This document shows, piece by piece, positions 11,031 to 62,514 of a stretch of DNA of 64,000 bases. Within the stretch, counting starts at the first letter, position 1; every line of letters starts with the position of its first letter. The stretch lies in the NCBI GenBank assembly GCA_036172245.1, contig JAYWIR010000006.1, forward strand, positions 62,001-126,000, written 5' to 3'. This DNA comes from Raillietiella orientalis. Its lineage: Eukaryota. The notes under the pieces were generated by a model. That model was not told where the DNA came from. It worked only from the letters and a program-made list of their open reading frames with translations, and did not search any database. Made by a program: the position numbers and the translations under genes.

Positions 11031-11581
11031 TACTTTACTGTCTGCCTTTTGTCAAGCGCCTTTCGCCTGACGGCCTCCTTGCGATTCCGAATGACGAAGT
11101 AAAAGACCATCCGTTCTCCCTAAGAAAATGGGCGTTACCGCGCAAACCGATCGTTTCCACACCCAAGGATCGCGCTGTATCCTCATTTCAGAATGATCAG
11201 CTGACTTGGCTTCGCAGAAAGCATGGATGCTGCTAAAGGGCTTTCTGCAATTGCCGAGATGCGCAATTTGGGAAACCAATCAGAAAAGCTGTCCACTATG
11301 CAACGGTTCTTCTTTCTTCATAATGAATAAACCAAGAGGAATTCAAATTTCGAGCAAACCTCAGCTATAGTTGATCGACACGTCTTCCTTGTCTTTTACA
11401 TAAAAGTTCATGAATCGTTTAAACACACATATCTCAAGAAAATAGAAGGAATCGGTAAACATCGCATCCCGCTGAAGAAACAAACAGGAATTCACGTACA
11501 ACCCACGTTGAAAGTCTCGAAACAAGGCAGCTGAGCAGATATTCGCAAACACAAGAGTTTTAAAAAGAGGGAAAAGCTGAT

Positions 11582-13159
11582 TGCTGCCCCGCGTACGCGC
11601 ACCTGTGTGCCGACGCCTGCGCCACGGGGCCTGCAGGGTCCAGGCGTGGTTTCCAGGGTGACGCCATTCTTGACTGCCATTCGGATTGAGCCCCCCTTGG
11701 GAAAGACGAGCCAGCCATGCGCTTCGGCAAACGCTTGCTACGCTTCTTTTCGAGGATCTGTCCGTGCTTGGGGACGAAGCGCCGCCGCGACGCACCACCT
11801 CCGCCACCTCCGCCCAACACCCCACGCTCCGAGCGAGTCTCTTTCGTCGAGGTCCAGCTCGTTGGATTGGAAGCGGAACGGGAGGAAGACGACGTCCTGT
11901 GGGACATCCGCTACCTCTTCGTCTAGGTGTTGTCGCTTCGCTGCTGCGCTCGCGTTCCCCTTGCGCGCAGCTCGGTTTGTTCGTGCTCGTGGTTTGTTTG
12001 TGCCACTCGAGCCGCTTGACGCCAACCAGCTCGGATCGGCTTGCCCCCACCCATCATCCCCCTTCCCTGCCCCTCCCCCTTGCCCGCGGAGCGCGTGCGT
12101 CCCTCCCCTCCATCCCTCCCGCGTTCGCCTAGCTGGTGTGCGGCCTCGCAGCCAGCGCTCGGCTCTCGGGCGACCGCCGATTGCACCCACCCGAAGCAGT
12201 GGGCCGGCTGGGCGCGGAAGCGCGCCGAGGCCCCTGCGGCCGCACCGTCATGCCGACGGAAAAAACAACCCACCTTGGTGCGGTGCGCAGCCTCCACGCA
12301 ATCGGTAGGAAGTTTCCCCGGTCCCTTGAGGTGAGTGTGCGCGAGCACGTCGTCGCTCACGTCACGGGCAGCTCGTTGCTAGCATGCACGCTGCCACCCG
12401 GATCGGGGAAGCAGGAGACCAGCTCCCACGGACCTCTGCTCAGAGGTAAGTGGGCCTGCACGCTGGCAGCGGGCAGCTGCGGCAGTACCGCCCCGGTTCC
12501 TCGGCAGGGCGTGTCACCTGCGCTCTTGCGGGTTGACCTCACTGAAGCGAAGACAGCGGAAGGCCCTCGTGGTTGCAGCCAGTCAGCTCCGGCTGACCTT
12601 GCGTTCTGGTCGCTGCGCTCCTCTCCGAGCGGCAGCAGTGTGCGACGAGTGCTTCCGTCCAGCAGCAAATGGCGGCCTCTGTTTCCGGCAACGTCAAGCG
12701 ACACCGCTCGTGCACCACCGACCTTGCCGCTCGTCTTCGACGCCAGCAAGGCAGCAGCACAAGGCAGTTGCTGGTGCCTTGCCGCCAACGGCTGCGGCCC
12801 TGGACACGTCCCTCCTGCAGCAGCAGGCAGGTACGTTGCCAAACGCAAGCTTCCGTCGCGGAACAGGCTGGCGGGCGCCATCCACGGCACACCTCCGGGA
12901 TGTGTTCTGCACCTGGCGAGACCTCGCCAGGTGGGCATCCCATCGCGTTTCACGACCACGCTCGTTCGTTGGCCCCGCGCGCCACAACGCGTCCTCCGAT
13001 TGCCTGAGAATTATCCGAGCGCAGCCTTCGTTCGCTCCAGCATTCGACGGCAGCAAACGAAAGCAGCCGGCAGAAGCAGCGAAACGCACAGCCAGGCTGC
13101 AATTGACCATCCAATCGGCTGCTTTCTTGGAATCTTCCAGATCGAGGACATGCGACGAA
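11582..13159. repeat. Inverted copy of 1-1563
   Basis: Reverse complement of the window start with only scattered substitutions and one 15-bp indel. Confidence 0.97.
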
Positions 13160-13939
13160 ATACAGGAAACGCGATGCAATTGAAAACATCTCTGGAAACA
13201 ACCGCTGCCATCACCCTGAGCAGTCTTTTCAAATGCTGCAGCATGATGTCGGCATTCTTTGAGTCTGCTGCTCAACAGTGGCCCATCATTGCAGATTGCG
13301 GAAGGCTCTCGAGGCGCGCGTCTCGGACGCAACTCCATGTAAGTGCTTTCTTCCAGTGTGAAATTCGTACTAGCCGATGGTACGCTTTTCCTTACTCACA
13401 GGCACATCACGGCAGCCTCTGTATAACTTGTATAATACTTGCCACACATTAAGATCGACATTCTACAGATTGTCTGGCTAGCAATCGTTGTTGGAAAAGT
13501 ACATTCTCACACCACGACAATCTTCCTTCCCAAGTACATTACATAATGAAACGCAGGAACCTCGTGCACTGGAAAGAATGCAAAAAGATTCATTCAAAGG
13601 ACACGCGTTGCGGTTTGTCTTTGCACTTCATTTCGAAAGCTCCGTTCAGTGCAAAAAGCACTCGACTTCCGTCTCCACAGCTTCGGATTTCATCAGGAAA
13701 TCCTTCGGTGAGCCAATCGTTCATTATTACGATTCTTTCTCGACACTTGCAATCCGATATCATAGCGACGGTCGCTGGTGCACCAGAGCTCCTTGGAAGT
13801 CACCGATCCAACGGACGCATACTCTCAATACTTGGATGCATCGAATGGTGGGTACGGAATACGCTGAGAGCACACGAGCCAGGCGACCGAAAGCAGAGAG
13901 ACGCTCCTGAATCACCACGAACAGCATCGACGAGAAGTG
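13098..13939. repeat. Inverted copy of 7199-8040
   Basis: Direct reverse-complement comparison. Confidence 0.96.
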
Positions 13940-13947
13940 CAGCCGAC

Positions 13948-14476
13948 GAGGTAGCGAATGTCCCACAGGACGTCGTCTTCCTCCCGTTCCGTTTCCAAGC
14001 CGACGAGCTGGACCTCGACGAAAGAGACTCGCTCGGAGCGCGGGGTGTTGGGCGGAGGTGGCGGAGGTGGTGCGTCGCGGCGGCGCTTCGTCCCCAAGCA
14101 CGGACAGATCCTCGAAAAGAAGCGTAGCAAGCGTTTGCCGAAGCGCATGGCTGGCTCGTCTTTCCCAAGGGGGGCTCAATCCGAATGGCAGTCAAGAATG
14201 GCGTCGCCCTGGAAACCACGCCTGGACCCTGCAGGCCCCGTGGCGCAGGCGCCGGCATACAGGTGCGCGTACGCGGGGCAGCAGCCAGCTGACCACCGAC
14301 CAGGAAGCACGTCTGGTGGCGGACGGTCTACCAGCGAACAGGAGCAAGGCTGAAAGAGGAGAAGGAAGCAACGGGTGCGGGGGGCAACTGGGGAGCTGAA
14401 CCATCCCTTTCTGGGCAATGCGGAAAAAGAGGAAGGTGTTGGCGGGCCGAAAGGCAATCGAGTCGCTGAAATGCAC
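13948..14476 (+). repeat. Direct copy of 1243-1756; 13948-14283 is also inverted relative to 11582-11917
   Basis: GAGGTAGCG...AGTCGCTGAAATGCAC is shared with 1243-1756, with a few more substitutions than between the other two copies. Confidence 0.96.
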
Positions 14477-15299
14477 GCAACGATGGCTTTGCATTGCCCT
14501 TTGCTTGGCGATTGAACGCAACAGCACGTCCAACTTTACGATTGCCGTGCAGGAAGTACACTCGGGGTGGGTCAAATGAGAATCGAGGAATCTGGCGTTT
14601 GGCTTGAAGGTGAAAAGGGAACGTTTGCAAGGTAGCGTTGCCTTGACCATGCGGCTTCGAGTGCTGTAAGAAATCATCCGGCGCATGCACTTCCTGCCCA
14701 ATTCTCGACTCTGCCGTTTATAGCTGCTGGAAGTGCTTTGCATGAACTTCGAGCTCCACGTTTTGCGAGCGACGTGTTGATGGTGCACGGAGGCGTCCAT
14801 TCATTTCAGCACTCCCGAGTGAATTGGGGAGACCTGTTTTTTGCAGATTCCTACTTTTTATTGAATCCCTGTTTCCATCGTGCTACGTTTGGGAGCACAA
14901 AAAGATAGAGGTGGCTCGTTTTTGCGTTTCCGTTTGGAGCTGCCTTTCGCCAAAGTCTGCTGCTGCTTTCTGTATGCCATTGGTATAGATGGAAATCCTC
15001 GGTACACTCGTGGTTGCGATGTTCGCATATGGGAGCGTCGTTCTTTCCGATGGGAAATGGGTCTTCTGTTGAGAATTGGAGTGTTGCGTTAATCTTTCTT
15101 TCTTGAGAAGTGCAGTCTTCGTGCGATTCCGAAGACCTGCACTTCGAACACGGTAGCGCCATTGACAGTAGCGTTCCGTGCGATGACCATTTCCTACTAT
15201 TTATGGCAACCAGTTGGGTCACCAGCCTACTGCTCTGCAGTGAACGTGCTTCTCGTGTCCCATGTGTTTTCGCGAGCAACACCTTACTCTACACTTTCG

Positions 15300-23989: not shown

Positions 23990-24640
23990 TCGACACAGTG
24001 AGTCGTGGGTTCGAGTTCCTTCCGCGAGATGACGCTAGTTGGTCTACATTCATTTGGGTGCAGCACTGGTTGCAGTTCAAACCGGATGCCCCGATGAGGG
24101 CCGGGACAGTGGGAGCTGACTTCCGGATCCTTCCAGGAATCAAGGAGTGGGAGTTTCCCTCGGGTTGTGAAGGAGCGGGTCTCCCATTCAGGGGGGACCC
24201 TCCGCGTCGTACCGATGAAGTAGGTGTGTAGCCACCTCTCGAGAGAGTGCAGGGGAGTGTGTACCGCTCCTTTCTTAGAAATTTCGGAAGCGTCCCTCCA
24301 GAGTACTCTTCAGAGGAGTAAACAGGAGCGGTTTCTTTGTGGGGGATCCCGCCAGAGAGAATAAGGAAGGAGGGGACTCCGGAATAAGGAAAGACTTTCG
24401 GGTTCCTTTCGGAGACAACCAGGGCGGAGGTGATCTCCATTCCGGGGATCCCTCCCCAGGTGCGAGAGGAACGGACTCCGAGTCCTTCTTGGATTCATAG
24501 GGTGGTCCCCTATCGGAGTACCCCTATCCCGAAGAATTACACGCACCCTCGGGTGGTGTGGAACAGCGTTAAAGCGCTGCGTGAGCCACCAGGCGCGCAA
24601 CGGCTCTCGAGCTACTCAGCGAACCAAAAAAAAAAAAAAA
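23990..24640 (+). mobile_element. tRNA-headed SINE-like element, copy 1 (head partly missing)
   Basis: B box GGTTCGAGTTCC near 24007, conserved core TCCTTCCAGGAATCAAGGAG, 3' motif CACGCACCCTCGGGTGGTGTGGAACAGCGTTAAAG, and an A-run at 24626-24640. Confidence 0.75.
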
Positions 24641-24939
24641 CTGGAAGGCACCATCAATAGAGGTTGAGATTAAGAGAGCGGGAAAATTGCTAATTCAGGA
24701 ACAACCGCTGCTGGATCGTTTCCACCTTCGAGATTGGCGACGAGTCTATGGCGCTTCTCTGTAAAAATGCTAGAACCACGTCTTGGGAGGAACCAGGGAT
24801 CCACTGCCGGATTTGGGGAGAGCAGCATGCATCCCCCTCCAGCGCGTTTCCTGGATATGTGTCTAAAATTTTTCATTTTATGTTTAGGGGTTGAAGAGAT
24901 AGATATCATGATGATTATGACGCGTTGGTGAGGCTTGCC

Positions 24940-25440
24940 GTGCAACTCCACTGGCAGTGAAGACTCGATGGCCCCAAGGCGGCAAGCAATACCAACCTGC
25001 AAGTGTCATCGAGAGATCGTCAACCATGGCAACGCTGATGCCAGCTCGTTCTGTCGCAGCCTCGGATTTCCGACGAGGAAACTCCTCCTTCTGCACCAAG
25101 CCCTGCAGCAGCATTCGCGCGGCGTGCTCACTCGCCAGATTGGATGCACCCCCCGCTGTCAGTGTGTGGGTCATCGCGTGCTTTCGCGACGCAGCACGAG
25201 CTCGACGAATCGAACATTCGCATCTCCCAGGAAACACCAAGTCACCGAATCCGACGGTGATATTCGGGTCCCTCACAGTTTCGCGTGCAAGAAGGAAATT
25301 TCCCCCCTGCCCTCCTCCAAGAGGGAAAGAGACACCTCCCTTCCTCGTCCCTTCTCATCCGGTTTCGCTTCAAGGGCCCCAAAAGCAGAGCGGCTTCCTA
25401 GGACGGCTGATGAAAGAGCGACGCGTTCAGTCCGCTTTGG
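24940..25440 (+). mobile_element. Tc1/mariner transposase relic (DDE domain)
   Basis: Ordered decayed motifs: RWPQGGKQYQPASVIER (cf. RRPGERYxPxCV), LQQHSRGVLTRQ (cf. FQQDNAxxH), LPGNTKSPNPTVIFGSL (cf. WPxxSPDLNPIENxW), MKERRVQSALEA (cf. SMPRRxxAVI). Confidence 0.55.
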
Positions 25441-26100
25441 AGGCCGTGCGGCTGCGGCCGTTGGTACCAAACGTCGCCGGTTCGAATCCCTTACAGGGGG
25501 AGGAGAACCAGCGGCGAGAATGGGGGGTGCCTCATGGGTGTCGAGTTCCCCCCGCAGCGGACGACGACGTTTGTTGGCCGACAGGTTGAGGGGATGGCAC
25601 CGGATCCCTCGTTGACTGGAGGCGACTGGACCCTCCGGGGCCCTTCGAGAAACCAAGGAGCGCTGGTTATCTTTGGGACTCCCTTCCAATTGTGAAAATG
25701 GAGCCGGTTGTTCGACTCCATTCTCACGTGTGCTGCGGAACAGTTGACACCGCCCTGGGGGGTTTGCCTCTCCAGAGTGTAAGAAGCACGCTGCTCCCTT
25801 CGGGGTTGCCTCCGGAGAAGAAGTTTCAGGAACCGATCCTTTCCGGATTCCCTTTGGAGAAGAAACGATGACCGGCCCCCTCCGGGGGCTCCCTCTGGAG
25901 AGAATAAGGAAGAGATTCTCTTCGGGGTTCCCTCCAAAGCGTAAGAGGAACAAAATCCTTCCTCCGGAGCCTTCCTGAGTTCACAGTGTGGTTCCTTCTG
26001 GGGCACCCATTAACTTGAGAGTCACACGCACCCTCGGGTGGCGTGGACAGTTTGTTAAAGACCATCATGAGCCCCCCTAAGGAGGCGGACGGTTTTTTAT
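25436..26100 (+). mobile_element. tRNA-headed SINE-like element, copy 2
   Basis: B box GGTTCGAATCCC at 25479-25490, shared core, about five internal ~40-bp units, and the shared 3' hairpin motif. Confidence 0.8.
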
Positions 26101-28574: not shown

Positions 28575-29195
28575 TTGGCGGTTGCGTGTCTGCGGCCTCC
28601 ACGAGCGGCACCAGGCGCTGTGGGTTCGAAACCCTTCCGGAGAATGATGGACTCCGAGAAGGGGAGATGCGTCGTGGGTGTCAAATACCTCCTGGCAGGA
28701 TGAACGCTGGCTGGCCTTCACTGGCGGAAGCAGCCGGAAGCCGGATGACCCTGCTGACTGGACGGGATTGCAAGTCGACACTCCGAGGTCCTTCCAGAAA
28801 CCAAGGAGCCGGCTCTCTTGAGAGTCCCTTCCGGTTGTGCAAATGAGGCCGTACCATGGAGCCAGTTGATGCCTTCTTTGGTGGTTTGTCTCTCTAGGGT
28901 GCAAGAAGTTCGGGGTTCTCCTCTGATGGGAACCAGGAGCGGCATCCTTGCGGGTTCTCTCCGGCGACAACCAGGGCAAGGGTTCTCTTCAGGACTCCCT
29001 CCAAGAGTAAGAGAGAAGACTGCTTCCTCCTAGCATTCCTTCTTCATCCATAGAGTGGTCCCTATGGCGTTGCCCCCTATAGCTTGAAGAGTTGCACCCA
29101 CCCTCGGGTACATGAGAGGTGTCAAAGTGCTCCGTGAGCCCATGGGCGCACCGTTCTTCAGCACCTGGTGGACCCAAAAAGAGAAAAAGAAAACT
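28575..29195 (+). mobile_element. tRNA-headed SINE-like element, copy 3
   Basis: B box GGTTCGAAACCC near 28624, core GTCCTTCCAGAAACCAAGGAG, 3' CACCCACCCTCGGGT motif, and an A-rich end. Confidence 0.78.
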
Positions 29196-29319
29196 CCGAG
29201 ATGTGGACGGCCTGACAGATCTCCAACGGTCGCCACCGTGCAATGCATCAGGGGGTGCCGAGTTCCTATCTAACGCAGCTTCGGCCGCGCTGCCTCGCAA
29301 TCACCTTAATCTACATACA

Positions 29320-29430
29320 CGCATTCATATTAATGTATATCTATACATATATACATACATCTATATCTATATCTGCATCTATCTATCTATATGGGTAGAT
29401 AGATAGATGGATAAATAGGATGGATGTAGA
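29320..29430. repeat. TA/TAGA microsatellite with a strand switch (14-bp inverted repeat)
   Basis: CATCTATCTATCTA-TATGGG-TAGATAGATAGATG at 29376-29409. Confidence 0.9.
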
Positions 29431-42919: not shown

Positions 42920-43670
42920 CGACAATGCGGTCCGTGTGGCTGCGATCTACGGGTGCCACCAGCATTGCGGGTTTGAATCCCACCCGAGGAAGCATCGACG
43001 CCGAGAAATGGAGTGCGTCATGGGTGTGGAGTCCCGCTGACAAAATGACGCTCTTTGAACTGTAGCCTTCGGTTGCGGCACTGGTGAAAGCCAGATGCCC
43101 CTGTTGACTGGTCGGGATTGGAATTCGACCCTCTGGGATCCTTTTAGAAACCAAAGAGCGGTTTCGTTCGGAATTTCCCTTCGGTTGTGAAACTGAAAGC
43201 GTATTATGGAGTTGGTCGATGCCTTCTTCGTGGGTTGCCTCTCCAGAGTATAAGGAGCGCGCTGCTCCCTTCGGGGTTTTCTTCAGAGGAGTAAATAAGG
43301 AGCCGTTCCCTTACGGGTTCTTCCTAGAAGAAATAAGGAGTATCTTTTTCTGGAGCCCCTCCTGATAGAATGAGGAAAAGGTTCCCTTCTGAGAAAACCA
43401 GAAAGAGGATCCCCTTCAAAGGTTTCCTCCCAAACGTAAGAGCTACGGACCCCTTCCCCTGGAGACTTTCCTGGATTCATAGGGTAGTCCCTTTGGGTTA
43501 CTCTTTATAACTTGAAGAGTCACACTCATCTTCGGGTGGGGTGGACAGCGTTAAAGAGCTTCGTGAGCCTCCCCTAAGAAGACGAACGGTTCTTCAAGAA
43601 CCATCCGCCTTCTTATCAGCACTTGACAAATCAACCAAAGAAAAGATCCCCTCTCCAAACAAAAAAAAGA
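42920..43670 (+). mobile_element. tRNA-headed SINE-like element, copy 4
   Basis: B box GGTTTGAATCCC at 42970-42981, shared core, internal units, and 3' motif CACTCATCTTCGGGTGGGGTGGACAGCGTTAAAG. Confidence 0.8.
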
Positions 43671-45413: not shown

Positions 45414-45464
45414 ATGAAAGCCGTCTGATATCTATCTATATCTATCTATCTATCTACATCTACA

Positions 45465-45522
<58 letters not shown>

Positions 45523-45719
45523 GTATATATATGTGCATATATATATATGTGTGTATATATATATGTGTATATATATATATGTGTATATATATATACACAG
45601 ATGTAGATGTAGATAGATAGATAGATATAGATAGATATCAGACGGCTTTCATACACATACATACATATATATATATGCACATTATGGATAAGAGAGAACA
45701 CATACATACATACATATAC

Positions 45720-45753
<34 letters not shown>

Positions 45754-45774
45754 GTGTTCTCTCTTATCCATAAT
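45414..45774. repeat. (TA)n-rich compound microsatellite forming two adjacent palindromes
   Basis: Arms 45414-45469 and 45597-45652 (56 bp), plus a second inverted repeat spanning 45681-45774 (~38-bp arms). Confidence 0.95.
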
Positions 45775-45959
45775 AAGCGCATGTATTTCCACGGTGGGAA
45801 AGCGCATTCGGCTTCCAAGCAACAGATTTCCGTCACCCGCAGAGCCGTTGATGATGGAAATCCTTTGGGTTCTTCTTTTCCTTCTGTCTTCGCTGTTTTT
45901 TCCTTCCATTTTTTTTTTTCAGTTTATTTTTTTTGGTTCGCTAAATACCTTAAGAGCTG

Positions 45960-46690
45960 ACGCGTGCCTCGCGGAGCACGTGGCAATTTAACACTGTTCC
46001 ACTCCACCCGCGAAGGGTGCGTGTAATTCTTCAAGATAAGGGGCACCATGGGAGGAGATCCGCCCTATGAATCCAGAAAGGTCTCGGAGTCCGTTCCTCT
46101 GACTCCTGGAGAGGGAACCCCAGAACGGGAGGACCACACCTCCACCCTGGTGGTCTCCGAAGGGAATCTACTTCCTCATTCTCTCCGAAGGGAGCCGCTC
46201 CTGTTCACTCCTTTGAAGAGAACCCCGAAGGGACGCTTCCGAAATTCAGGGCGGGCTCCGCTTCCCTGGAGAGATCGCTCTTGCTTCCTTTTACTCTCTG
46301 GAGAGGTGGCGACGCACCTTCGTCAGCACGACTAGGAGGGTTCCCCCCTGGAATAGGGGATCCGCTCCTTCAGCACCTACTCCATCTGAACAAACCGGAG
46401 GGGTCCCTCACGGTGGGATCCGCTCTCCATTGCACAACCGGAGGGACAACTTTCCACTCCTTGATTCCTGGAAGGACTCGGAGATCAACTCCCATTCCGG
46501 CATTCATCGGGAGCCTTCGATTTTAACCACTACCGCTGCCGCGCCCGAATATTTAGGCCAACCAGCGCCATCTTGCATAATAAACTCGGAACCCAACGAC
46601 GCAGGGCATCAGTTTCTTTCGTAGAATTCGAACCCGCGACGCATGGTGCCACGCGCGGAAGCCTTAATCACAAAGCCTTCGACGCAGTCA
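45960..46690 (-). mobile_element. tRNA-headed SINE-like element, copy 5
   Basis: Reverse complement has A-box-like GGCTTTGTGATTAAGGC, B box GGTTCGAATTC, core TCCTTCCAGGAATCAAGGAG, and 3' GAATTACACGCACCC..GGGTGGAGTGGAACAGTGTTAAA. Confidence 0.8.
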
Positions 46691-48719: not shown

Positions 48720-49607
48720 GCAGGAACGCACATCTCTGGCTGACTGTCGCTCCCGGTTTGCAGCTCCCTCTGACGAGTTCTAGTATTCGGTGGCTCGTAA
48801 TAGCGCCCGCTCCTTCCCGCGCGTCTTCTTCCGCGACTCTGTCACGCGCAGGCTGCAGCTTTCCGGAGCGTCAGCGTAGGCAAGACGGGTCGTGCGAGTC
48901 ATCGGATTCCGGTCCCCGTGCGTCTACGAGATCTCTATGCAGGTCTTTGACAGCTGCAGAAATCGCCCGCGGGCTCAGGAGGGCATGTGCTCCCAGGAAG
49001 GGCTGTCACAGATTTCGCGCCGATTGCACCTTGAGTGCTCCTTGGCTTCACGGCGATTCGAGCGTGCTAAAGCAAGGAGCGGTTGAGGAAGTGGAGAGTC
49101 TAGAGACACCTGGACTCCAGAATCCATGCCAAAGGGTCTGCGTGGCAGCTTCGTTGAGCGCATTTCTTCGGCAGCACCCCTGCTCCACTCATGCAGTCCA
49201 GCAAATGACTGCGACTCTAGCGGCGACTCTGCGAGTGGATGGCGGCGCCCGGCGCCAACCGTTTGCGCGCCCAACCCGGGGTCCTACAGCGTTGCCCGCT
49301 ACCTGCGGATTGCGACCAGGTGGCCCCACCTGGGAAGAATATGGACGGACCTCGAGGGCATCCTGCAAAGGATGGACCCTCCTCCCAATGGAGAGTGATC
49401 CCTTCCCGGCCCACCAAAGTCTTTATTTTTTTTTTCTATTTTTTTTTTCGTTTTGTTTTTTCCCCAGTCCCTTCCGCTGCTGTGGAGAGTCTCGCCGGTC
49501 TGCGTACCGGCGACCCAGCAGGTCCTGTGTTGTGTTGACCGTAGTGGGGCCTAATGCTACGTTTATATAGAGAATTAATAGACGCCCCGGCGTGATCGGG
49601 TGGCAAC
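48720..49607 (+). mobile_element. 3' portion and 3' UTR of an L1/Tx1-like element, same family as 58840-62450
   Basis: 49396-49607 aligns with the reverse complement of 58840-59061 (GTGATCCCTTCCC, T-rich tract, terminal CGCCCCGGCGTGA.CGGGTG). Confidence 0.85.
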
Positions 49608-49979: not shown

Positions 49980-52950
49980 CGGGTCGGGAATTGGGACAAC
50001 TTGAAGCGCATCATCCACGTATTTTGAAAAGCTCAAGATGCTTTCCTACGATGCTTGCAGAAACGACTCATCCGTAACAGCAGGAAAGTCTAGAAGAGAA
50101 AAACTCCATGGAAGAAGTGAAGCAGGCATTCGGAGGACTCCGCAGGGATGTGACTGCAGGTCCTGATTGCATGCCCATCTCGCACTATCAGCGGTACCTG
50201 CACGTCTACTTGCATTCGTTTCACGAGCTGACGCTTCGCTTCCAAGAAGAACGGAGGCTCCTCGAGTCGTTCCACGATAGCAGCATCAGGCGGCTGCCAA
50301 AGGGAGGAGACCTGCACAGGTCGCCCAATGGCGGCCCATCTCCATCTTGGACACGGACGCAAAGTGGTTGGTCAAGATCTTAGGCAGTTGGTTGGGTCAA
50401 CCGCCTAAGCAAGACGCTGCCATCCGACATCTCCCCAATGCAGACGTGCGCGGTGCCCGGAAGCATTATGTCTGACAACGTGAACTGTGCCCAGTCCACC
50501 TTAGGCTACAGCGCTACATCGGCGGCAACCTGGTCCTGGGTTTCACTGGTATGGAGAGGGCGTTCGACACCGTGGACCATGGGTTGTTGCTGAAGATTGT
50601 GAAGAAACTGGGCGTTTCAGAATACTTCGGTCACTACGTGGAGAAGAATCTCGATGGACAGTACTGCAAGCTAAGCATGAACTGGTAAGACATGGTAGTC
50701 ATCCGGATGGCAAGCGGAATCCGCCAAGGAGACGCCCTCAGTCCGATGCTGTTCGTGGTATACAGGAAGGCGGTATCTTTTCTGGTCCACATTGACGGCC
50801 TTCTCCAAGGAATACGCGTTGACCACGTCGTACTGACTCACCTGGAGTATGCGGACAATCTACTCTGTTCCCTCTAAAAAGAAAGGGTTCTCATGAGTTC
50901 CTCAGTGAGGTGGAGTCCATCGAAAGAGGAGTGCAATTGAAGATCAACAGCCAGAAATAGCAGCTATTGCCCATCAGAATCCTGGACCTCTTCGCGTCAA
51001 CAGAGGAAGAATTCCGAGTGATCAAGTATCTGGGAATCCACATTAGCGACTCCCCAGCTTTGCAACAGGTGTGGAAAAAGATCCTGGGGAAAACGAGAGA
51101 AAATGCTGCAAAATACAAACGGCTCAACTTCTGTCTGAAGCAGAGGGAAAACCTGTAGAACAAAGTCCTCATACCCAAGATGGTCTTTGGAGTGGCCATC
51201 GGCCGATTAGACAAATGGACGAGCAAGAAGATGGAACTATTGAAGCGGAAAATACTCTGGAAAGAATTCAAGCCGCGGATCGGGCTAAAACTCTTGTGTC
51301 GAACGTGATAGAAAGGCGGGACAGGAATGAAGTCGCTGGAGGGATTCCTGGATCTCCTGCACGTGTGAGAAATCATGAATCTCGCCAACAAATGGGACCA
51401 GGGGCCTCATGCGACGCGCAGAGCCTTCTCACATTTGCAGAACATTTCGAGATGCGTCATGTCTGCCCTTATGGGCAAACACGAAAGTGGAAACACATCG
51501 ACCCTACTTGGTAGAAAAAGCAGGCAATGCAGAACAAGCAATAACTCAAAACAGTGTCAAGAAGTAAGGAAATATGGGTAGGCGAACCGGGCATGCACAT
51601 TCTATACTCCCTGAGTATCTCACGGGACACCATGGAAGGGATATTCCATAGGCCATGAATGACCATCAGAAACTGCGAGCAGTTCGCAACAAGCGGCTAC
51701 CGCCAGCAGATGCGAATGTTTCGCCTCATTACGAAGATGGTGGAACATTTTTTCCACAAGTATAGAGAACTCTGGAAAAATCAGAAATCCAACTGCTGGC
51801 TCCTGATCATCAGAGCAAACATCCGAGAAGCGGTAGCAAGGAATCTGGATCAGGACCACGATCTATCTGCTGCAGACAGCCGCTAGGGTTGGGGTCAGAT
51901 AAACCTGATGGAGGTTGGAATCATGGTCTAAACGAACGACATGCCACCCAACACTCAGGATGACCCGTGATGCTTTATCACGGAGGCATCCTGAGAGACA
52001 CGAGGACAAAATCCTCGGCAGGCAATGTCCGGAACGAGATCTGCAAGACTTGTGGAGTTAGAGTAACCCAGCTTCATGTACTCACCTTGCTGATGCCTCA
52101 CGGCGACTGGGTCAAACTAAAGCAGATAACCGGCCTGCAGACGATGAAGATGAAGGTCCGCACTTCCATCGCCCTCTTCATCAGAAGCATCGTGATAAGA
52201 AGGGCAAAGATGCGGACCCGCGTGAACGGACAATACGCAAGCAGTGGATATCCTGAAAGGTTCATTAAGAAAGAAGATTGGGATCAGGAGCTGTGGATGT
52301 ATTCCCACTTGGGCTTACTATTACATTCTGCAAAAGATTAAGGAAAGTAGTCAAGTGAGTGGAATCCCCAAGAGAACTCAGTGACTCATTGCCGCAGAGC
52401 ACATCTGAACGTGATCAGCAAGTGACAATGGGTGATATTGAGAAACACTAGTAAACTGCGGGTTGCATCCGTGCCATTGGAGCCCGACTGAGACTGCAAA
52501 CCACTACGCAGCGATAAGAGGTAACCAGAATGGCAGTCATCTTCATCGGGGTGGCTTCAAAAGAAACTCACCTGGAAGAGGATGCCTAGGAGATCATCGG
52601 CATCCACCGCCGGTTAATGACGGTTTGGGATGAAGAACCCTGTGATGGTTTTCCTTTCCCCCTCTTTATTCATGTTTTCTTCTAGGTTCCACATCTCCAT
52701 TTGTTCCGTGGCTTTCCTGATGCTTTTTTTTTGATCCAGGTGCACGTGGAGCGATACCAAGGATTCCTAACCCTTCCCACTCACATTGTTTATTTTTGTT
52801 GTCTTCTTGCCCCTCCTCCGTTTGGGACTCTCTGTTGTCAATGGCTGTTTGTCGATGTATCCACCCCTTCATTTCTGGTAGTCGTCATCGGGAACTAGAG
52901 ATTTCAACTGATTTATTTTTATAACGTTCTCGGCAAGAGCGGGTGAAAAC
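49980..52950 (+). mobile_element. Degenerate L1/Tx1-like retrotransposon: RT, C-terminal Zn motif and 3' region
   Basis: EEVKQAF..AGPDCMP, GIRQGDALSPMLF, YADN, KYLGI, CKTC..H. Multiple stops and frameshifts; terminal motif at 52921-52950. Confidence 0.9.
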
Positions 52951-52959
52951 TTCATCCGC

Positions 52960-53990
52960 CTGTTATCAGATGCGGCGAAGAAAGAGGTCAATTCGGTTAA
53001 CGAGATGTTAGGTGCTATGCACGCATCGAAGCTGTTCGCAGGGGAGCCCGGGATAGAGGGAAACGTTCACTACGTCTTCTTCTACGAGCACTGTACTGGC
53101 GAGAAGGCTCCGCGTGATCGTGCGGAGTCGGGTTTCTCGTCCATAGTAGGATGTCCATAGTTTTTTAATAAACGCCCGGGCAACCCGGTGACAGCGTCCA
53201 TAGTAGGATAGCGGAAGCGGTGCGCAGCGCTCGATTCGACCAGGAAGGGCGAATCGGCCAATTTGTACTCAAGATTCAATCGACCTCGTCGTGGCGAACG
53301 TCTACGCGCCGAGCGGCTTTCATCGGCATGCCGAAAGAATCGAGTTCTTCGACGTGCTGGAAAGCCAATGGCTCAGGAACTCCGGAGCCAGAGTGGCACA
53401 TCTCGTCGCAGGGGACTTCAGCGTCCACCTGCTTTCTAACGAGACGAGGTCAGAACGGTCGCGGGTGGACGAGGCATGAGCATCGGTGCACGCGCGTAAC
53501 TTGCAAACCTGCGAGTCTGAATTGGAAAGGTGCGTGGATCACGTCTACCTCGATGAGCACCTGCTCTCACGAGTGGGGAAGAGAGGCAGGTTACCGTCCA
53601 CGTTATCGGACCATGACAGGCTGGAGTTCGAGCTCCTCCCGCCGGGCAAGGGGCCTCCGCACAATGCTTGGAGGATGCCGGCGGATTGGCTTATTCATCC
53701 GGAAGCGGCAGAGCATTTTCGACAGTTTCTCCGTGGCTTTGCATCCGGCAGACTTTGACGATCTAAAAAGATCGGTTCGCGAGTTTTGCGATCGGTTTTC
53801 TCTGCACCTGCTGCCCCGCGGCTTCGGGGAAGGCGTGGCCCATAGCAGAGAACTTCTGCAGACGCGCACCTTCTCTAGATGCGCGGAAGTCCGGCGCCTC
53901 GCACAGTACAAGGCGAGGCGCCGGACTCCCCTGCCGCGGTTTGGCGAGCGCAAACAGTGCATACTAGACGCGACCACGGCGCTTGCGTGA
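52960..53990 (+). mobile_element. APE endonuclease fragment of an L1/Tx1-like element
   Basis: CGVGFL, ANVYAP, AGDF, DHVYL, SDH and WRM motifs; homologous to 62016..62441(-). Confidence 0.9.
53153..53194 (+). mobile_element. 42-bp 5'-truncated retroelement insertion with a 15-bp target-site duplication
   Basis: CGTCCATAGTAGGAT at 53138-53152 and 53195-53209 flanks ...TTTTTTAATAAACGCCCGGGCAACCCGGTGACAG. Confidence 0.85.
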
Positions 53991-54062
53991 TTTGTGGCTA
54001 TTTATATTTTGTAATCTATTTATTTATTTAATAAATCCTATCTACTGGAAAGTGACAGTGCA

Positions 54063-55440
54063 GTGCAGCTGAGGACGATCACCAGCAGCAGCGACACCAC
54101 AGTGGAGGACTTGCATTCCGCCACGGCGACAGCTCACCAGTCCGCCGCAAGGATGCAAGGGGAGTTGGGGGACAGGCCGACGTCACCCCAGCCGATGGAG
54201 GTAGCGTCCGGAGAATGTGCAGGGTCGCCGCGTGTCGCCTACGCGACGGCGCTGGTATCGCAGCCTACGACCTCCCAAGTAGCGGGGAGCTCGAAGGCCG
54301 CGATGCCATCTTGTTCGGCTGCAACGACGCGGCCATTTTCTTACGCGGAGGTGGCAGCCGGAAATTCCAACGCTCCACTACGAACATTTGGAAAGCCGGA
54401 AGTCGGCGAAATGTGGATGAGCCGATCGTGCGGATCAGTGCGAATGTGAAGCCGATCACATTCAAAACAGGACTCATCAGGATAAATAATATCAAAGAGG
54501 TGCATTTGACCCTCTATAAGGAGAATGTGGACTTTGACCACGTACAAGCGATCATACCGAGCACGACGGGTTCACAGTCTACACGGACAGTGAACCCCTC
54601 ATCGAGACCCTGATCAAAAAGGGCATAAATGTACAAGGGAGGATGGTCCGTGGAATCGGCGAAACACCGAATACAATGGTGTTTCTTGGAGGAGTCTTCA
54701 TGACAACAAATGAACAAGCGGTGTGGAGTTTCCTCACCAAGTACGTTGAAGTTATGGATGTGGAATTCCGGAACTTTTCAGGAAACGTGTTCTCCGGCGA
54801 TGTCATCGCCAAGATCAGGTTATTTAAAGATGAGAAGATTCCGGGACTCGCCCAAATCGATGGGGATTCCCAGGAAGTCTTCATACGATATAGGCAACAG
54901 CCTACATTTTGAACGGGTTGCAAGCACTTTGACTACAGGATCAGTGCTTGTCCAAGGTCTCGGTGCTTCCGCTGCAGCAAGTAGGGACACCAGATCCAGT
55001 CTTGCAACCAACCTAAAGTGTGTGCCTTCTGTAAGGCAACGGGCCACGCGAGGTGGAGCTGCACAGAATACGCCAACATGCGCGGGCCCTCGCCTGTACA
55101 GGCAACCTTGCGCACGGGCAGTATCGTAGGCAAGGAAGGCGACTGAGCCGCGATCATTGAGAAAGTAAGGGAAACAAGAAGAGAGAGAGAAGGTGGAAAA
55201 AGTAAGGGAGCTCGTCCCAATATCAAAGGATGACTTCATCGAAGTGAGGAAAAAGGGGAAGAGGAAGATGCTCGCTAATGAGCAGCAGGCCTTCGACAAA
55301 CCCGAGGAAAAAGCAGAAGAGAAAATGGAGACAGTCGAGCCCGTCCCGGAAACGCAGGAAAATCTGCAAATCAATGAGGAATTGGCAAAGCTGAATGAAG
55401 AGGTCCAACCGGGAACCAGCAGAGAGGAGCAGGGGAAACT
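54063..55440 (+). mobile_element. ORF1 (gag-like) of an L1/Tx1-like element, disrupted
   Basis: SYAEVA motif, RRM-like region (54643-54912), three CCHC knuckles (e.g. CFRCSKxGHQIQSC, CAFCKATGHARWSC) and a charged tail. Confidence 0.85.
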
Positions 55441-57316
55441 GGGTGTGTGGGTGTACGCTGACCAACCTGCCCAGAGCCTCTCCTTGCCCGCCATCCGTGG
55501 CAGCATACGCCGACGACCTTCTGCTTCTGTTGCCCATGTTCACAGCGGTGAAATCGGTCGAAGACTTCGAGCTGATCCGTCGGGAAGCGGACATGAGCGT
55601 TAACAGGGCGAAGTGCTCCGTCGTACCGGTGGGTGTGTCGTGGGAGGGGCAGGCCGGCTGGATCCGCCTGGGGACCCCCACGGGCAGGTACTTCAAGTAC
55701 CTTGGCGTTCCGTTGGGCGAATTCTGCTCGTCAGAAGTGTGGTCAGCCTGCCTTCAAAAAGCAGAGATGCCTCTCGTCCCGTTCCTTGGCGGTAAGTTCG
55801 TCTTGCCGTAAAGGGCGTGCGTCTGGAACACTTTTCTTGCCTCCTTCCTCCGTCTGCTGTTTTTTGTTTGCCCGCCCCCCTATTTGGTGAAACTACGGGC
55901 GCAGCGTCTCCTCCGTAAGGCCTTGTGGAGCGCTGCACGATCCCGGATTCGCCTCAAAGATTTGGTGGCGCCGCGCCAGGACGCTGGCTTGGGCATCCTG
56001 ACCATAGAGAAGATTGGACTGCAGGTGCAGTTCCCTCTCCCTATGTGGGAAATTGTGGTCTTCGCACTGGTGTGCTCCGGCTCGCCATATCCTCCAGCGA
56101 TGTGTCGGCAGTGCAAGACTTGTTTCGTTGCTGCCGCGCAACCTACGCCAGAGGACTGGATTTGGCTACCCTCTGAGGCATCTGTCCTCGTTGTTGTTAG
56201 CCCATCCCTGGATCTCCTGCCGCCTCACGAACTGGGATGCCTGGCGGCAGGAATCTCTGGAGCACTGAACTTCCACTTTGGATGTGCGTCTAGGGCAATT
56301 GCGACCTCTACCTTTTCCAGTTTGCGTAGGAGACCCCTTTCAGGGTCCTGGAGTTATCCTGCAGGACTGGTCGCTTTGGTCCTGAGTAGCCATCTCAACC
56401 CTGGAGGCTGCACTGTCTGCCCTGAGGGCAGACAACAACAGTAGACAGCCGGCAGGGAGGGAGTTCTCCTGCAGCATTGCAGAAGTCGAAAAACTCCTGA
56501 GCGGCTGCAAAACGACTGTGTTGCTGGATGCTGCCACTTCTCGTCACCGGGCAAAGGGACTCCTTTGGTGGAGTGAACTTCTTAGTGTACCCCCCGAAGA
56601 ACTCGTGGTCCCTTCCCTCTGCATTGATACCTCGGTCTTCCCGCTTCGATAGGAACAGGATGTTCTGCTATGCATGCACTGGAGCTTCCAGTGCAATCAT
56701 CGCAGACACCTGGTTTCCGGGGGAGTTGCTTCCCCAAACTGTCTTAGGTGCAGGGCGATGGAATCGCTTCCGCACCTACTTCTGGGCTGCAGTATTTTGC
56801 GGGAGTTATGGCAAAGACTTGCTTCGGTACTTCGTCGTCCCGAACACTGCTGCCACATCAAGCTGCTGCAACGCTTCTTCAGCGGAGGCGGACTGAAGAA
56901 AGGTGATGTGACCGCAACAATCTGCTGCATCCGCGCCATTGTGACGGCCTGCCGTAAGCTCCAAGGAAGTTCGCAGCGAAAGGACGCCACCAGGATAGCT
57001 GCCAACCTCATGGAGGCAGCTGCAAGGTGTTCTCATCTGCCCAGAAAATTCGATAGGGAAGTCGCCATCATCAAGGGGCGCTTCTAGAAGAAGGGGAATG
57101 TTTCTTACCAAAGATCCCTTCCTCCCTCCCTTGTTTTTTTGTTTATTTTGCGTTCCCACCCTCTGTTCTCTTTTTTGAAGCCGGCCTGCGTGCCAGTGGT
57201 TTTCCTGTTAAACTTTTTCTATGGGCGTTTTTTTGTGTGTCTTGGGGGGATACACATCCCTTCAAGTTTGTGGTTTGCTTTCCTGAATAAATGTCCCGCC
57301 GTGACCAGGTTCAAAC
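55440..57316 (+). mobile_element. L1/Tx1-like element: RT C-terminal half, Zn finger and 3' UTR
   Basis: VAAYADDLLLLLP, FKYLGVPL, GLGI, CLRCRAMESLPHLLLGC, stop at 57087, T-rich UTR, terminal motif at 57286-57316. Confidence 0.92.
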
Positions 57317-57319
57317 CTC

Positions 57320-57760
57320 TACGAGCACTTGCGCTCCCACGTGTGGAGACGGGGAAATGTACTGTCCGCGCTCTTCGAAGACTCCTTGGTGAAACTTGAA
57401 ATTCTTCCGCGTGACAGGCAAGCGCTCCCCCTCTTTAACATGGTGTCTTCCAAGGGACTCGCTTAACGTGTCTAGTGCTCCGGAACACTTCAGGGTGTTC
57501 CTGCAAGGCTGCAGCGTGCAGACGCTCGATGACTGGGACGATTTCAAGGTCTGTGAGCAGTTTCCCCTGTACCATCTCCCAAGAAGTTAGGTATGACGGG
57601 AGTGTTGGGAGCGAACGAGCGCATTTACAGGCTCGTCGTTAAACCCGAACACTGGACATCCGCTTATTATCGAAGTGCAAAGCCAAAGCCTTGCGACTCG
57701 CCTGCAAACCACGTCGACCAGTCTGTTGGTCGACGACGTTCAGGGTAATCAGCCCAGGCG
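57320..57760 (+). mobile_element. Fragment of an L1-like endonuclease/linker region
   Basis: WCLPRDSL...DWDDFK resembles the post-endonuclease W.L..SLL...WDxFK segment. Confidence 0.45.
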
Positions 57761-57762
57761 GA

Positions 57763-58830
57763 GTTTGTCATCCGGATTCTTCGAGGCATTTATTATAGAA
57801 ATGATAACAAGAACCAAGTAATTGTGGTGTGCTGAAGCACTTGGTTTACCTCTTGACTCCAACTTCTTGGTCACCGGTCTGTAGACCGGCAAAGGGAGAA
57901 AAAAGACCACGAACAAAAAGAAACAAAAAGAGAAAATAAGAGGAGGGAGATGTTAGTTGGTAAGCGAGAGCGAAGAAGGGTCCATTTGCCGCATGGATAC
58001 ATCCTTTGCATCCTTACCAGGATCCTTACCGAGTTGTATGCTTTGCAGGATCCTTATCGAGTTGTATTCCTTTGTTTCCCATGTGGGGCTATCTCCATGT
58101 GGTCTTCGAAAAGATCCTTGTCCCGCGGATGGCATTTCACCCATTCTGGCATCTCCTTGTCGCGTTCCACGCCTCCTAGATTCAGGGAATGCAACAGAAA
58201 ACTGCTTCGAACACGACCAGCAGAAAATCGAAACGATCGTAGAAACGTTTAAAAATGTCTATGGAACCGCCTTCGGGAATATCTAGGATCACTGACAGAC
58301 GATCCAAGAGAGGACGAAGGGCGGCACAGTTTAACAGATGGTGTGCTAAATTCTCTTTGTTCGATGCAATTTTCACAACGGGCATCTACACTCTCTTGTT
58401 TCCAATGATGGAGGCGTGCAAACGCAAGTCGGGACAATACTTCCGTGGCAAGCTTAGGGGTGAGGATGCTTCTCGTTTCTGAGAAGTCGGTTATGAGCAG
58501 CGCGGTGCAGCACGGATGCAGACTTGCTCTGAAACCTGATGCACTGCCTGGTGACCACTTTTCGGACGGGGCGAGGAACCTGACATCGCCTTCGCAGAAG
58601 CATGTTGGAATATCAACGGATTGCGTAACGACGAGAAAAGGCAAAGCATGGCGAACGCTCTTTCCGTTTCGACTTGGCACTCCTGCAGGAGATTCACAAC
58701 ATCTCCGATGAGCAGGTGTCTGGCATGAGCAGCGCTCAGGCGGAACGTTGCACTGGCTAAGAGGTTCAGCAAAAACGCACGGAGTCGGGTTGGTCGACGA
58801 TCACAGAGTGACGGAACAGTGCTTAGCGCT
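57763..58830 (-). mobile_element. 3' portion and 3' UTR of a related L1/Tx1-like element
   Basis: CENC plus ENLAHHLLNC (frameshifted Zn finger), T-rich UTR, hairpin at 57873-57890, terminal motif at 57763-57794. Confidence 0.75.
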
Positions 58831-58839
58831 GGATTCAAC

Positions 58840-61800
58840 GTTTTCACCCGGTCACGCCGGGGCGTTTATTTAAAAACTTTCGGTATTTGTGGTATAAGGC
58901 CTCGCTGCGGCCAATAAAACATAGGGAGCTGCCGGGTTGTCGGTGCACAGACCGACTTGACACTTCACGTCAGCGGAAGGGGATGGGGAAAACAAAAATA
59001 AAAATAAAGGAAACTGGAAACACAAAAAACCATAGTTCTTTGGAGGGCTGGGAAGGGATCACTGTCCGCTGCGTGGAATTTCCATCCTTTGCAGTATGCC
59101 GACGAGGTCCTTCTGCAGATTTCCCAGGTGGGTCCATCGGGATGCTATTCGCAGAAAGCGAGCTGCATACTCGATGACATCCCTTCCGTTAACACCTTCT
59201 GCTTCGTCGGATCCACTCCAAGCCGCCACAATACCGCGGATGTAGCTGAGCGTTGCTACGACAGCGGCTGGCTACAAGGCGTCCCGCACGAAGCCGAAAA
59301 ATGTCTCTGGAAGGGCTACCTTCCACGATCCCTAGGGTCGTACCGAAACATTCCCAAAGGGGCCGGAGGGCAACCCAGTCAACTAAGAGGTGCGGAAGGG
59401 ATTCACGCTCCCCACACCTGGCACAGTTTGGATTCAATCGTCCCCGTGTCCAGTGATGGCGACGTGCGTTGCAAGGGAGTCCCCAGTGCAACAGCATAAG
59501 CGCCGACTCCTGCCATTTTAGGGGAAGGATCCTTCTTCCGGTTATCATTGCGGGTCACTTCAGGTCATCCGTCGTGATGCCGAGCAGCTCGCCCCATTTT
59601 TTCAGTCCTTACGGAAGGACGCTCTCGATTGTAGCGTACGCCAGCTGTCCCATGGTCCAACCGCTCATCAACTTTTCTCTGCCTGCGATACGGCAAGAGA
59701 CCTGCCACCTCGGCGTCCGGCTGCTGACGAGGGCCCTACGTAGGAAGGGCAGCACCGTCGCTAGGCAGGTCGTCTCTGCCCACTTGCTCCTGGCTGGACA
59801 CTCCAGGATCTCGCGTAAAGTGCAGCGGGCGTATCGGCCGCGTCACAGGCTATTCCACGTCTCGTGGCTCCTCTGATTCACTACCGCCCACATGCCAACT
59901 GTTTCTTCCAGCCATGCGCTCGAGTTGACGGGGCCGCAGATCATCAACGCATTCTCCTTCGCCAGGGTGGCTATTCGTCCGAGGAGAAGATCTTCCTTCC
60001 ACGACATAAAAGATGAGATGCAAGTCCTCCCATTCCGGATACACGTCTGGCGAGGAGGTGGGCCGGAACACACCAAGCATTGCTCCACAACTTCGCCGCG
60101 ATGGTCAAGGTTTGCCATCGCGGCTGAATTTCCATGCGCTCCAGCGTCAGGAGGCCTAGACCACCATCTCGACGCAGAGCGCACAAGTCCATCAAAGGGA
60201 CTCGGCTCCTCCCCTTGCCCCAAAGGGAGATGGCAGGAGGTCCTTGGTCCTCTGCTTAATTTCCACGGGGACGGGACAAACAAAAAGTAGGGGGCGGAGG
60301 ATGGGGGCCGCGAAGGCGTTCCAAACCGCGGCCCGCTCCAGCAAGTGGAACTTGCCCTCCAGGAACGGGCCGATCGCCAGCTCCACTTTCTGGAGACGGT
60401 CTGACCAGGCTTCTGACGGGCAGAAGACCCCAGCGGAACGCCAAGGTACTTCAAATACCCGCCCGTTTGGATCCCCAAGCGGATGCAATCAGGCCGTCCT
60501 ACCCACGTCGCTCCAACTGCCACCACCGACGGTTTTGCCCTGTTAACCCGGAGACCCGTCCCACGGCTTAGCAGATCGAAGAAATATTCGACTGCCGTTG
60601 CCGGGGCGGACATGGGGAGCAGGAGCAGAACATCGTCGGCATAGGTTGCTACGGCAGGCGTGCCGGGGCACGAGCTCGGCAAGGCAGCCAAAGTCGTCCT
60701 GTACGCTCTCAGCACCAACTCGAAGTAGGTGCTAAAGAGCAGGGGACTGAGGCTATCGCTCTGCCGTATCTTGCGGCGCACTGGCACGCCGTACACGTTT
60801 TGTCCTCTGAAAAAGATGTTCGTCAGCGCGGCGCGCCAGCAGGAGCGCAGGTACGCCGTCAAGGTAGGTGGGAAGCCCATGCGATGCAGAAGCTCCAGAA
60901 GTCCCTGGTCCACGCAGTCGAACGCTTTATGGAGATCGACTGCGATCGTTAGGGCACGCTTGCCCGCCCGGCTGTCCCCATCCTGACCAGCGGTCACCCT
61001 CAAATCGGGGTTGCCGACAGTTCCCTTCCGCTCTTTAACTTCGCATTGCACATGAAACCATGTGCAGGCGAAGAGCAGGTTAGCCTCCATACTTCGCCCA
61101 GGAACAGCGTAAGTCTGCTCCGGGCTAATTACGGATTCGGCTACCTGTCCGAGCCGCGCAGCCCACAGCTTCCCGACCAACTTGATGCCCGTGTTCATGA
61201 CCGTGATCGTACGCCAGTATTTCAACTTACGGAGGTCTCCTCCCTTAGGAAGGAGCCTCATCCTAGCTGACCGGAACGAGGTGGGAACATCGCCTTCTTC
61301 CCGGATCAGCTGTGTCAACCTAAGCACCAAGGGGGTCATCTCTGCCGCAAAGCTTTGAAAAAACTCCGCGGGCAGGCCGTCCTCCCCTGGTACCTTTCGC
61401 CTCTTGAGCCTTTTTATCGCGGTGATGATTTCACCGGTCGTAAAAGGCTTGCCGAGGCTTTCCCTCTACTCCTTCCCTATAGCCGGGGCTCCGTCCGGGA
61501 GCAGCAGTCGCGAGGTGTGCCGCTCGGGAGGCGCCCTGGCGTATAGGGAGGAATAAAATTCCCGAGGATCTGTCGAATCGCGGCCGGGGCCGAGGTTCCC
61601 GGTCCTGGTCGTCCAGCAGGGTGGGCGGCCCGAACTGCCAGGCTTGGCGCTCAGCCCCGGCTCGGTACTCGGCCAGGCGACGGACGTTGGGGGTCCTCGC
61701 GTAACGACGGGCGTATAAATATGCCCTTTCGTTGCGAATACCTTCCCCAAACCCGGAGGGAAGTCGCCCCAGGGGAAACTCCTCACAGAACTCGCGGACC

Positions 61801-62450: not shown

Positions 62451-62514
62451 GAAAAACCAAGGACCAAAGCGACCCCCGAAAAAAGGCTAAAGCTGAAGTA
62501 TCGGGTGTACCTAT

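What the first reader, a model, noticed from the sequence alone, without database searches (positions are those of the whole stretch)
53138..53209. A 42-bp retro-insertion with a perfect 15-bp TSD pins down a poly(A)-less LINE terminus
Seen: CGTCCATAGTAGGAT flanks GTCCATAGTTTTTTAATAAACGCCCGGGCAACCCGGTGACAG on both sides. Removing the insert and one TSD (57 bp) restores CGVGFLVHSRIAEAVRSARFD, which aligns without gaps to CGVAFFLKPAVDASVRNVRFD of the 62-kb paralogue. The insert starts with a re-copied 9-nt piece of the target and ends with AATAAA, a CCGGG-CAA-CCCGG hairpin and TGACA, with no A tail. Inference: target-primed reverse transcription began just downstream of the hairpin and aborted after about 35 nt.
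Basis: partly seen in the sequence, partly recalled or inferred. Interest (0 to 1): 0.7.

Follow-up and report, generated by a model that had tools for sequence, protein, structure and literature searches.

The report
Tiny truncated LINE insertion, two-A end
A 42-base scrap of a jumping gene's tail was pasted into an older jumping gene; it is an ordinary cut-short copy, but it shows the unusual end shared by about a thousand such elements in this genome, which stop two A's after a small hairpin instead of carrying a long poly(A) tail.

Summary
Confirmed: a perfect 15-bp duplication flanks a 42-bp insert in a dead LINE's endonuclease gene, and 14 of 14 paralogues examined have the empty site. 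The insert is the extreme 3' end of an L1/Tx1-like LINE. Its motif (AATAAA, GC hairpin, GTG-NN-AA) occurs 1011 times in the genome, in families whose ORF2 proteins are only 53-70% identical. Corrections: the true end is NN-AA (here GACAG, last A changed); the hairpin here is a decayed variant; only 4-6 of the '9 re-copied' bases are target-only, the rest are microhomology. Such target re-copying is rare (1 of 58 junctions) and looks like a failed microhomology join. Very short inserts are not unique (32, 38, 59 bp), and lengths do not pile up at the motif's boundary. Long A tails are rare (4 loci with 8-15 A, one inside its TSD), so the RNA is probably polyadenylated and copying starts two A's into the tail (inferred; no RNA data). 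The scan had already reported this terminus and the nesting on other pieces of this genome. Ordinary truncated insertion; the shared terminus is a variant of 'stringent' LINE ends.

The parts
53138..53152 (+). 5' copy of the 15-bp target site duplication
53153..53158 (+). target-templated extra bases GTCCAT (GTCC only if the donor is family A); they start at base 2 of the TSD, one base short of the inferred first nick, and carry the copy-private CC
53159..53161 (+). microhomology AGT shared by target and element 3' UTR (ATAGT, 53157-53161, if family A)
53159..53193 (+). element-derived part (about 35 nt): T-run, AATAAA, hairpin, GACA
53167..53172 (+). AATAAA hexamer; GTTT (53160-53163) can pair with AAAC (53170-53173)
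53173..53190 (+). terminal GC hairpin, variant form (stem CCGGG 53176-53180 / CCCGG 53184-53188, loop CAA)
53191..53194 (+). terminal ACAG, where other copies read NN-AA
53195..53209 (+). 3' copy of the target site duplication
53093..57315 (+). host: 5'-truncated dead L1/Tx1-like LINE (APE endonuclease to C-terminus), interrupted at about 53970-55455 by other sequence; own decayed terminus at 57286-57315
53079..53092 (+). 5' copy of the host LINE's own TSD (14 bp with one mismatch, 12 bp exact; 3' copy at 57316-57329); the host sits in the endonuclease region of a third LINE
58841..58870 (-). intact copy of the shared terminus, end of the 59-62.5 kb LINE (family B)
49577..49606 (+). another copy of the shared terminus (two substitutions)

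Best explanation
The 42 bp are an extremely 5'-truncated insertion of an L1/Tx1-like LINE made by target-primed reverse transcription. (1) Shown: the elements of this lineage end AATAAA - GC hairpin - GTG-NN-AA and make 10-17 bp TSDs. (2) Inferred: ORF2p holds the RNA by the hairpin and starts copying at a fixed distance, two A's into a poly(A) tail that is added right after GTG-NN; pairing with the target is not needed, since family B targets begin with C. (3) Inferred: the first nick lay at 53137/53138 and the second 15 bp further on. After about 35 nt the cDNA end paired by AGT (or ATAGT) with the single-stranded 15-nt target overhang, was extended over GTCCAT up to one base short of the nick, came off, and was joined to the overhang's end; this gives TSD + partial target re-copy + element end + TSD. 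(4) Inferred: the donor was a family B subfamily that carries G at hairpin position 6 and prefers C-rich targets such as CGTCC. The insert is dead and has no function of its own.
For: Empty sites and private CC variant. 1011 motif matches, control 0. After GGT: G 70, A 71, A 70 of 75 at +1, +4, +5, then variable; A-run of 2 or 3 in 208 of 229 and never over 5 (sample enriched for GACA/GATA ends). TSD of 10 bp or more within 1 kb in 63 of 229 (control 6 of 190), starting right after NN-AA in 38 of 63. Full element with ORF1 and APE-RT ORF2 ends in the motif. A8-A15 at 4 loci, one with 11 A inside its TSD. 14 of 14 family B targets start with C. G6 form in 8 other loci, 5 of them family B with C-start targets; nearest sampled terminus is of that kind (5 edits against 7 for family A). 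Microhomology and extra or duplicated target bases at truncated 5' junctions are described for R1/R2 and L1 (PMC2718515, PMC2912911, passages) and dissociation-and-rejoin is the model of templated insertions (PMC12426944, passages).
Against: No RNA evidence at all. The insert is 4 edits from any sampled 26-nt terminus while its two TSD copies are identical, so part of the divergence must predate insertion, and no exact donor was found. ATAGTTTTTTAA is also an exact family A variant (7 of 118). The hairpin has no covariation support (changes at the two free positions are mostly CpG-type). The target re-copy is a single case (1 of 58), so its mechanism rests on one junction. The long A-runs could be slippage.
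Confidence: 0.75

Rival explanations
1. Same insertion, but the template RNA has no poly(A): it is cut or trimmed to end exactly in NN-AA, and reverse transcription starts at the RNA's 3' end.
For: A-run never over 5 in 229 sampled termini; only 6 loci genome-wide with 6 or more A; AA|C junctions of family B need no A:T pairing.
Against: AATAAA kept in 218 of 229 at a spacing typical of a polyadenylation signal (the spacing rule is recalled); 11 A between the motif and the TSD at one locus, 15 A at another.
Confidence: 0.3
2. The donor RNA was family A (ATAGTTTTTTAA...GACA) and was inserted in trans by a family B enzyme, made possible by the shared 3' signal.
For: ATAG+TTTTTTAA is a family A form (7 of 118); GAC ends are common in family A; the site CGTCC scores below all 118 family A targets and above the family B median.
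Against: Family B subfamilies also have AGTTTTT(T), GAC ends and the G6 hairpin, which explains site and sequence together without trans action.
Confidence: 0.2
3. Not retrotransposition: a break was repaired by polymerase-theta-type joining that copied 35 nt from some genomic LINE end and duplicated 15 bp.
For: The partial target re-copy is the kind of scar that templated insertions leave (PMC12426944, passages); the hairpin is a diverged form, as in an old DNA copy.
Against: The piece stops exactly at the element's 3' end and the TSD starts where it starts in 38 of 63 other copies, with a typical length; no donor with this form exists elsewhere in the assembly.
Confidence: 0.07
4. Assembly artefact.
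For: No reads were examined.
Against: An artefact would not put a family-type terminus in register between two exact 15-mers; 62 other copies have the same layout.
Confidence: 0.02

Closest known systems
5'-truncated non-LTR insertions made by TPRT (human L1, PMC2912911; Drosophila R1/R2, PMC2718515; passages read)
   Same: TSD, exact 3' end, variable 5' end with microhomology, extra bases or duplicated target bases; R1 makes 14-bp TSDs
   Different: Only about 35 nt were copied; the extra bases come from inside the TSD itself; no poly(A) as in human L1
Stringent-type LINEs with a 3' stem-loop: monocot L1 lineage and Chlamydomonas L1-1_CR (PMC3747384), UnaL2, ZfL2, SART1 (PMC5135761); passages read
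   Same: Conserved terminal hairpin shared among related elements, taken as the RT recognition signal
   Different: Here the signal is about 30 nt, nearly invariant across families with 53-70% identical ORF2, and is followed by only AA, not by poly(A) (stated for L1-1_CR and SART1) or a tandem repeat (UnaL2); no experiment here
Target-preferring Tx1-clade LINEs (Tx1, Keno, Kibi/Koshi, Tx1-Mar; PMC4494074, passages read)
   Same: APE-RT ORF2, CCHC ORF1, family-specific target preference, often inside other transposons, tandem insertions around a TSD
   Different: Targets here are coding regions of sister LINEs; RT identity to named relatives at most 34%; tree position unresolved; I could not read what the classic Tx1 3' ends look like (PMC85248 not held)
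Polymerase-theta templated insertions (PMC12426944, passages read)
   Same: Short microhomology priming, brief extension on flanking DNA, release and rejoining
   Different: Here it is one junction of a retro-insertion; RT itself could do the same; the enzyme is not identified

Membership tests
5'-truncated TPRT insertion of a non-LTR retrotransposon | Target site duplication with a demonstrable empty site | tested here: met
   15 bp, 14 of 14 paralogues empty
5'-truncated TPRT insertion of a non-LTR retrotransposon | 3' end coincides with the 3' end of an RT-encoding element | tested here: met
   (last base G instead of A)
5'-truncated TPRT insertion of a non-LTR retrotransposon | Site matches the endonuclease preference of the donor family | tested here: inconclusive
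   fits family B (n=14), not family A (0 of 118 score as low); donor family is inferred
L1/Tx1 group of LINEs (donor and host) | ORF2 with APE endonuclease, RT and C-terminal zinc motif; ORF1 with CCHC knuckles | tested here: met
   PF03372, PF00078, weak PF13966, PF00098
Tx1 clade in the strict sense | RT groups with reference Tx1 elements | tested here: inconclusive
   (quick tree, 37 of 38 rows, no named Tx1 reference): four own ORF2 form one long branch (support 100), placement unresolved; ORF1 similar to a fish protein with ZCCHC3-type domains at E 2e-6 to 7e-9, but the Pfam models themselves are not hit
Tx1 clade in the strict sense | Family-specific target preference | tested here: met
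   family A ACAGC/ACAAC-type sites, family B C-start sites; 9 of 75 termini antisense in one endonuclease stretch
Relaxed, poly(A)-recognising L1 (mammalian type) | Copies end in a poly(A) tail | tested here: not met
   6 loci with 6 or more A against 1011 motif matches
Stringent-type LINE | Conserved 3'-terminal stem-loop | tested here: inconclusive
   stem nearly invariant, 27 loop forms, folds at about -9 kcal/mol, but no covariation; the search pattern itself fixed most stem bases
Stringent-type LINE | 3' end required for retrotransposition / bound by ORF2p | not testable with these tools
   needs a retrotransposition or binding assay
Stringent-type LINE | SINE partner sharing the 3' end; lack of processed pseudogenes | not tested
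   short copies examined were truncated LINE ends; no SINE search made
Known structured RNA family | Rfam match | tested here: not met
   no match at the insert or the termini in 52000-59500 at E up to 1

The most novel reading that the evidence does not exclude
This LINE lineage uses one nearly invariant 30-nt signal (AAUAAA plus hairpin) as a ruler: any of its divergent enzymes binds it and starts reverse transcription exactly two A's beyond GUG-NN, without pairing to the target, so families can mobilise each other's RNA while keeping their own target sites. The 32-42 bp inserts would then show that this signal is all that must be copied, a very compact tag for RNA-templated, sequence-biased insertion.
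Probability: 0.25. Interest if true: 0.65.

Novelty: new variant of a known kind. Interest (0 to 1): 0.33.

Why it matters
The insert itself is a fossil of a routine event. The shared terminus matters more: how L1-type reverse transcriptases pick their RNA and their start point (hairpin or poly(A)) is an open question, and here about a thousand copies of divergent families agree on the end to the base, with rare poly(A)-bearing exceptions. That makes a clean test case. The junction is also an unusually legible record of how a truncated cDNA is joined to the target.

Tried and rejected
Pile-up of truncations at the motif's 5' boundary: rejected; lengths of 58 TSD-defined inserts run on evenly (2 under 60 bp, one being this finding). 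Family A as sure donor and 'donor = host family' (my early notes): dropped; the host is about 70% identical to the family A element in DNA. Helitron 3' end (recalled likeness of the hairpin): rejected, the motif ends APE-RT elements and makes TSDs. Compensatory change in the insert's stem (G6/C16): single case, cannot be told from decay. Read-through priming from a donor that sits before ACAGCGTCC (two such sites seen): needs an extra deletion, not pursued. RNA evidence: no RNA holder listed; no reads laid. Junction classes (25 'extra', 13 blunt, 15 microhomology of 53; 3 more lacked references) overstate 'extra' because of subfamily divergence. Paper searches for a tail-less L1/Tx1 terminus and for TSD-templated junctions found no description of this motif; the library lacks most subscription papers and Repbase, so this is weak. 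No supplements were read. Atlas search of ORF2 gave only generic RT clusters without taxa.

Full report
Observation. The 15-mer CGTCCATAGTAGGAT lies at 53138 and 53195 and nowhere else in the window, around the stated 42 bases. Without the insert and one copy the frame reads CGVGFLVHSRIAEAVRSARFD, gap-free against the 62-kb paralogue. A genome search with the downstream host sequence gave 39 other long matches among 40 scored of 651 candidates; the 14 fetched all have one copy of the site, and none has the CC of this copy. The CC is in both duplicates and in the internal GTCC, so all three were copied from this site.

Setting. The window is G000:C6:62001-126000 of a 210-Mb eukaryote assembly. 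No light-harvesting gene was found; the 18S gene looks arthropod-like to me from memory, which I did not test. The host is a 5'-truncated dead LINE, 53093-57315, with its own 14-bp TSD (one mismatch) and a decayed terminus, itself inserted in the endonuclease region of another LINE.

The terminus. The pattern TAAACGCCCNGGCN{2,4}CCNGGT matches 1011 times, the reversed control never. In 75 distinct termini the next bases are G (70), two family-specific bases, A (71), A (70), then anything. In a larger set of 229, enriched for GACA and GATA ends, the A-run is 2 in 75, 3 in 133, 4-5 in 8 and under 2 in 13; an exact TSD of 10 bp or more was found within 1 kb for 63 (control 6 of 190), 10-17 bp, mode 14, starting right after NN-AA in 38 and one or two A earlier in 17. 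The third A is mostly the first base of family A targets (85 of 118 start with A). An element with ORF1 and a 1203-residue APE-RT ORF2 ends in the motif, and four ORF2 that end in it are 53-70% identical. So the motif is part of the elements, and the end is NN-AA; the insert's GACAG has lost its last A. The hexamer is AATAAA in 218 of 229. The stem is nearly invariant (11 matches, control 2, with another base at stem position 7) and the loop has 27 forms, but the two free stem positions show no covariation.

Poly(A). Four loci have 6 or more A under one pattern and four have 7 or more under another, six loci in all. The runs in the second set are 12, 9, 8 and 15 A; at the first, 21 nt of hairpin and 11 A lie between two copies of an 11-bp TSD. 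I infer that the RNA is polyadenylated after GTG-NN and that copying normally starts two A's into the tail. All 14 family B targets begin with C, so the start needs no A:T pairing there. No RNA data could be laid, and an RNA that simply ends in AA remains possible.

How special is the insert? Other very short copies exist: 32 bp, 38 bp, and a copy of about 59 bp in tandem at a used site. Lengths run on evenly with no peak at the motif boundary. The 5' junction is rare: only this one of 58 begins with 5 or more bases of its own TSD (9 here; 0.1% of control pairings reach 6). Part of the 9-mer is element sequence: family A 3' UTRs read GGATAGTTT (never GTCC before ATAG in 118), family B UTRs often AGTTTTT. 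The site CGTCC scores below all 118 family A targets and above the family B median. The G at hairpin position 6 recurs at 8 other loci, 5 of them family B with C-start targets, two with GAC ends, and the nearest sampled terminus is one of these (5 edits against 7). So family B is the likelier donor: 6 nt of target re-copy, 3 nt of microhomology, about 35 nt of element. With family A it would be 4 + 5 nt and insertion in trans.

Mechanism. Shown: TSD, empty site, shared end, private-variant re-copy. Inferred: nick at 53137/53138, copying of about 35 nt, second nick 15 bp on, pairing of the cDNA end with AGT in the 15-nt overhang, extension to one base short of the nick, release, and joining to the overhang's end. 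Microhomology, extra bases and duplicated target at truncated 5' ends are described for R1/R2 (PMC2718515, passages) and discussed for L1 (PMC2912911, passages); release and rejoining is the model for polymerase-theta templated insertions (PMC12426944, passages). PMC13580325 (passages) added nothing.

Comparison. It works like a stringent-type LINE end (PMC3747384 and PMC5135761, passages) on an L1/Tx1-type element. Target preference is Tx1-like (PMC4494074, passages): 23 of 75 termini are followed by LINE ORF2 sequence with five query elements, 9 of them antisense in one endonuclease stretch, and each family has its own short site motif; I did not exclude that some same-site copies are duplications of one insertion. 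Best relatives are at most 34% identical in the RT region, the top named ones from ticks, a fish and frogs; a quick tree leaves the lineage on a long branch without firm placement, so strict Tx1 membership is open. Seven paper searches showed no description of this motif, in a library that lacks most subscription journals.

Earlier notes of the scan report the same terminus and the nesting on other pieces of this genome; I had reached both before reading them, and took from them only the GTTT/AAAC helix, which 183 of 229 termini could form by a loose test.

Verdict. Real, correctly read in outline, ordinary as an event. The lineage-wide two-A terminus is a new variant of a known kind and is testable; interest 0.33.

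Noticed in passing
window 55104-55160 +: 5' fragment of U4 snRNA (Rfam RF00015, 35.5 bits, under the gathering score of 46, E 2.7e-5) inside the ORF1-like piece that interrupts the host LINE; no TSD found. Possibly a tailless retro-copy.
   Followed up: partly
window 62497-63999 +: Open frame of at least 501 residues, A-rich, running off the window; no Pfam hit and no usable Atlas hit.
   Followed up: partly
window 1-1570 with 11575-13159, and 7199-8044 with 13094-13939: Long, 98.7-98.9% identical inverted copies; 1236-1759 also recurs directly at 13941-14479. A recent inverted duplication or a large inverted-repeat element.
   Followed up: no
window 23999-26097, 28586-29195, 42936-43594, 45923-46603: A dispersed repeat with several copies at 68-75% identity in both orientations.
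   Followed up: no
window 45428-45757 and 29312-29417: Simple tandem repeat arrays.
   Followed up: no
L298 (= L049), G000:C6 near 5698614-5698643, minus strand: Shortest insert seen: 21 nt of hairpin plus 11 A between two copies of an 11-bp TSD, whose ATAAA doubles as 5' microhomology.
   Followed up: yes
L202, G000:C49 460695-460792: A truncated copy of about 59 bp inserted in tandem at a site already used by a sister copy.
   Followed up: partly
L068, G000:C1 8044857-8052300: A family A element with long open ORF1 and ORF2 is followed by the 3' part of a sister copy at a site (TCAACCGTCCC) that resembles the family's usual antisense site in the endonuclease region.
   Followed up: partly
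window 58555-58840: The minus-strand LINE of 59-62.5 kb is inserted antisense in the endonuclease region of another LINE, close to the same GVG motif that the finding interrupts.
   Followed up: partly
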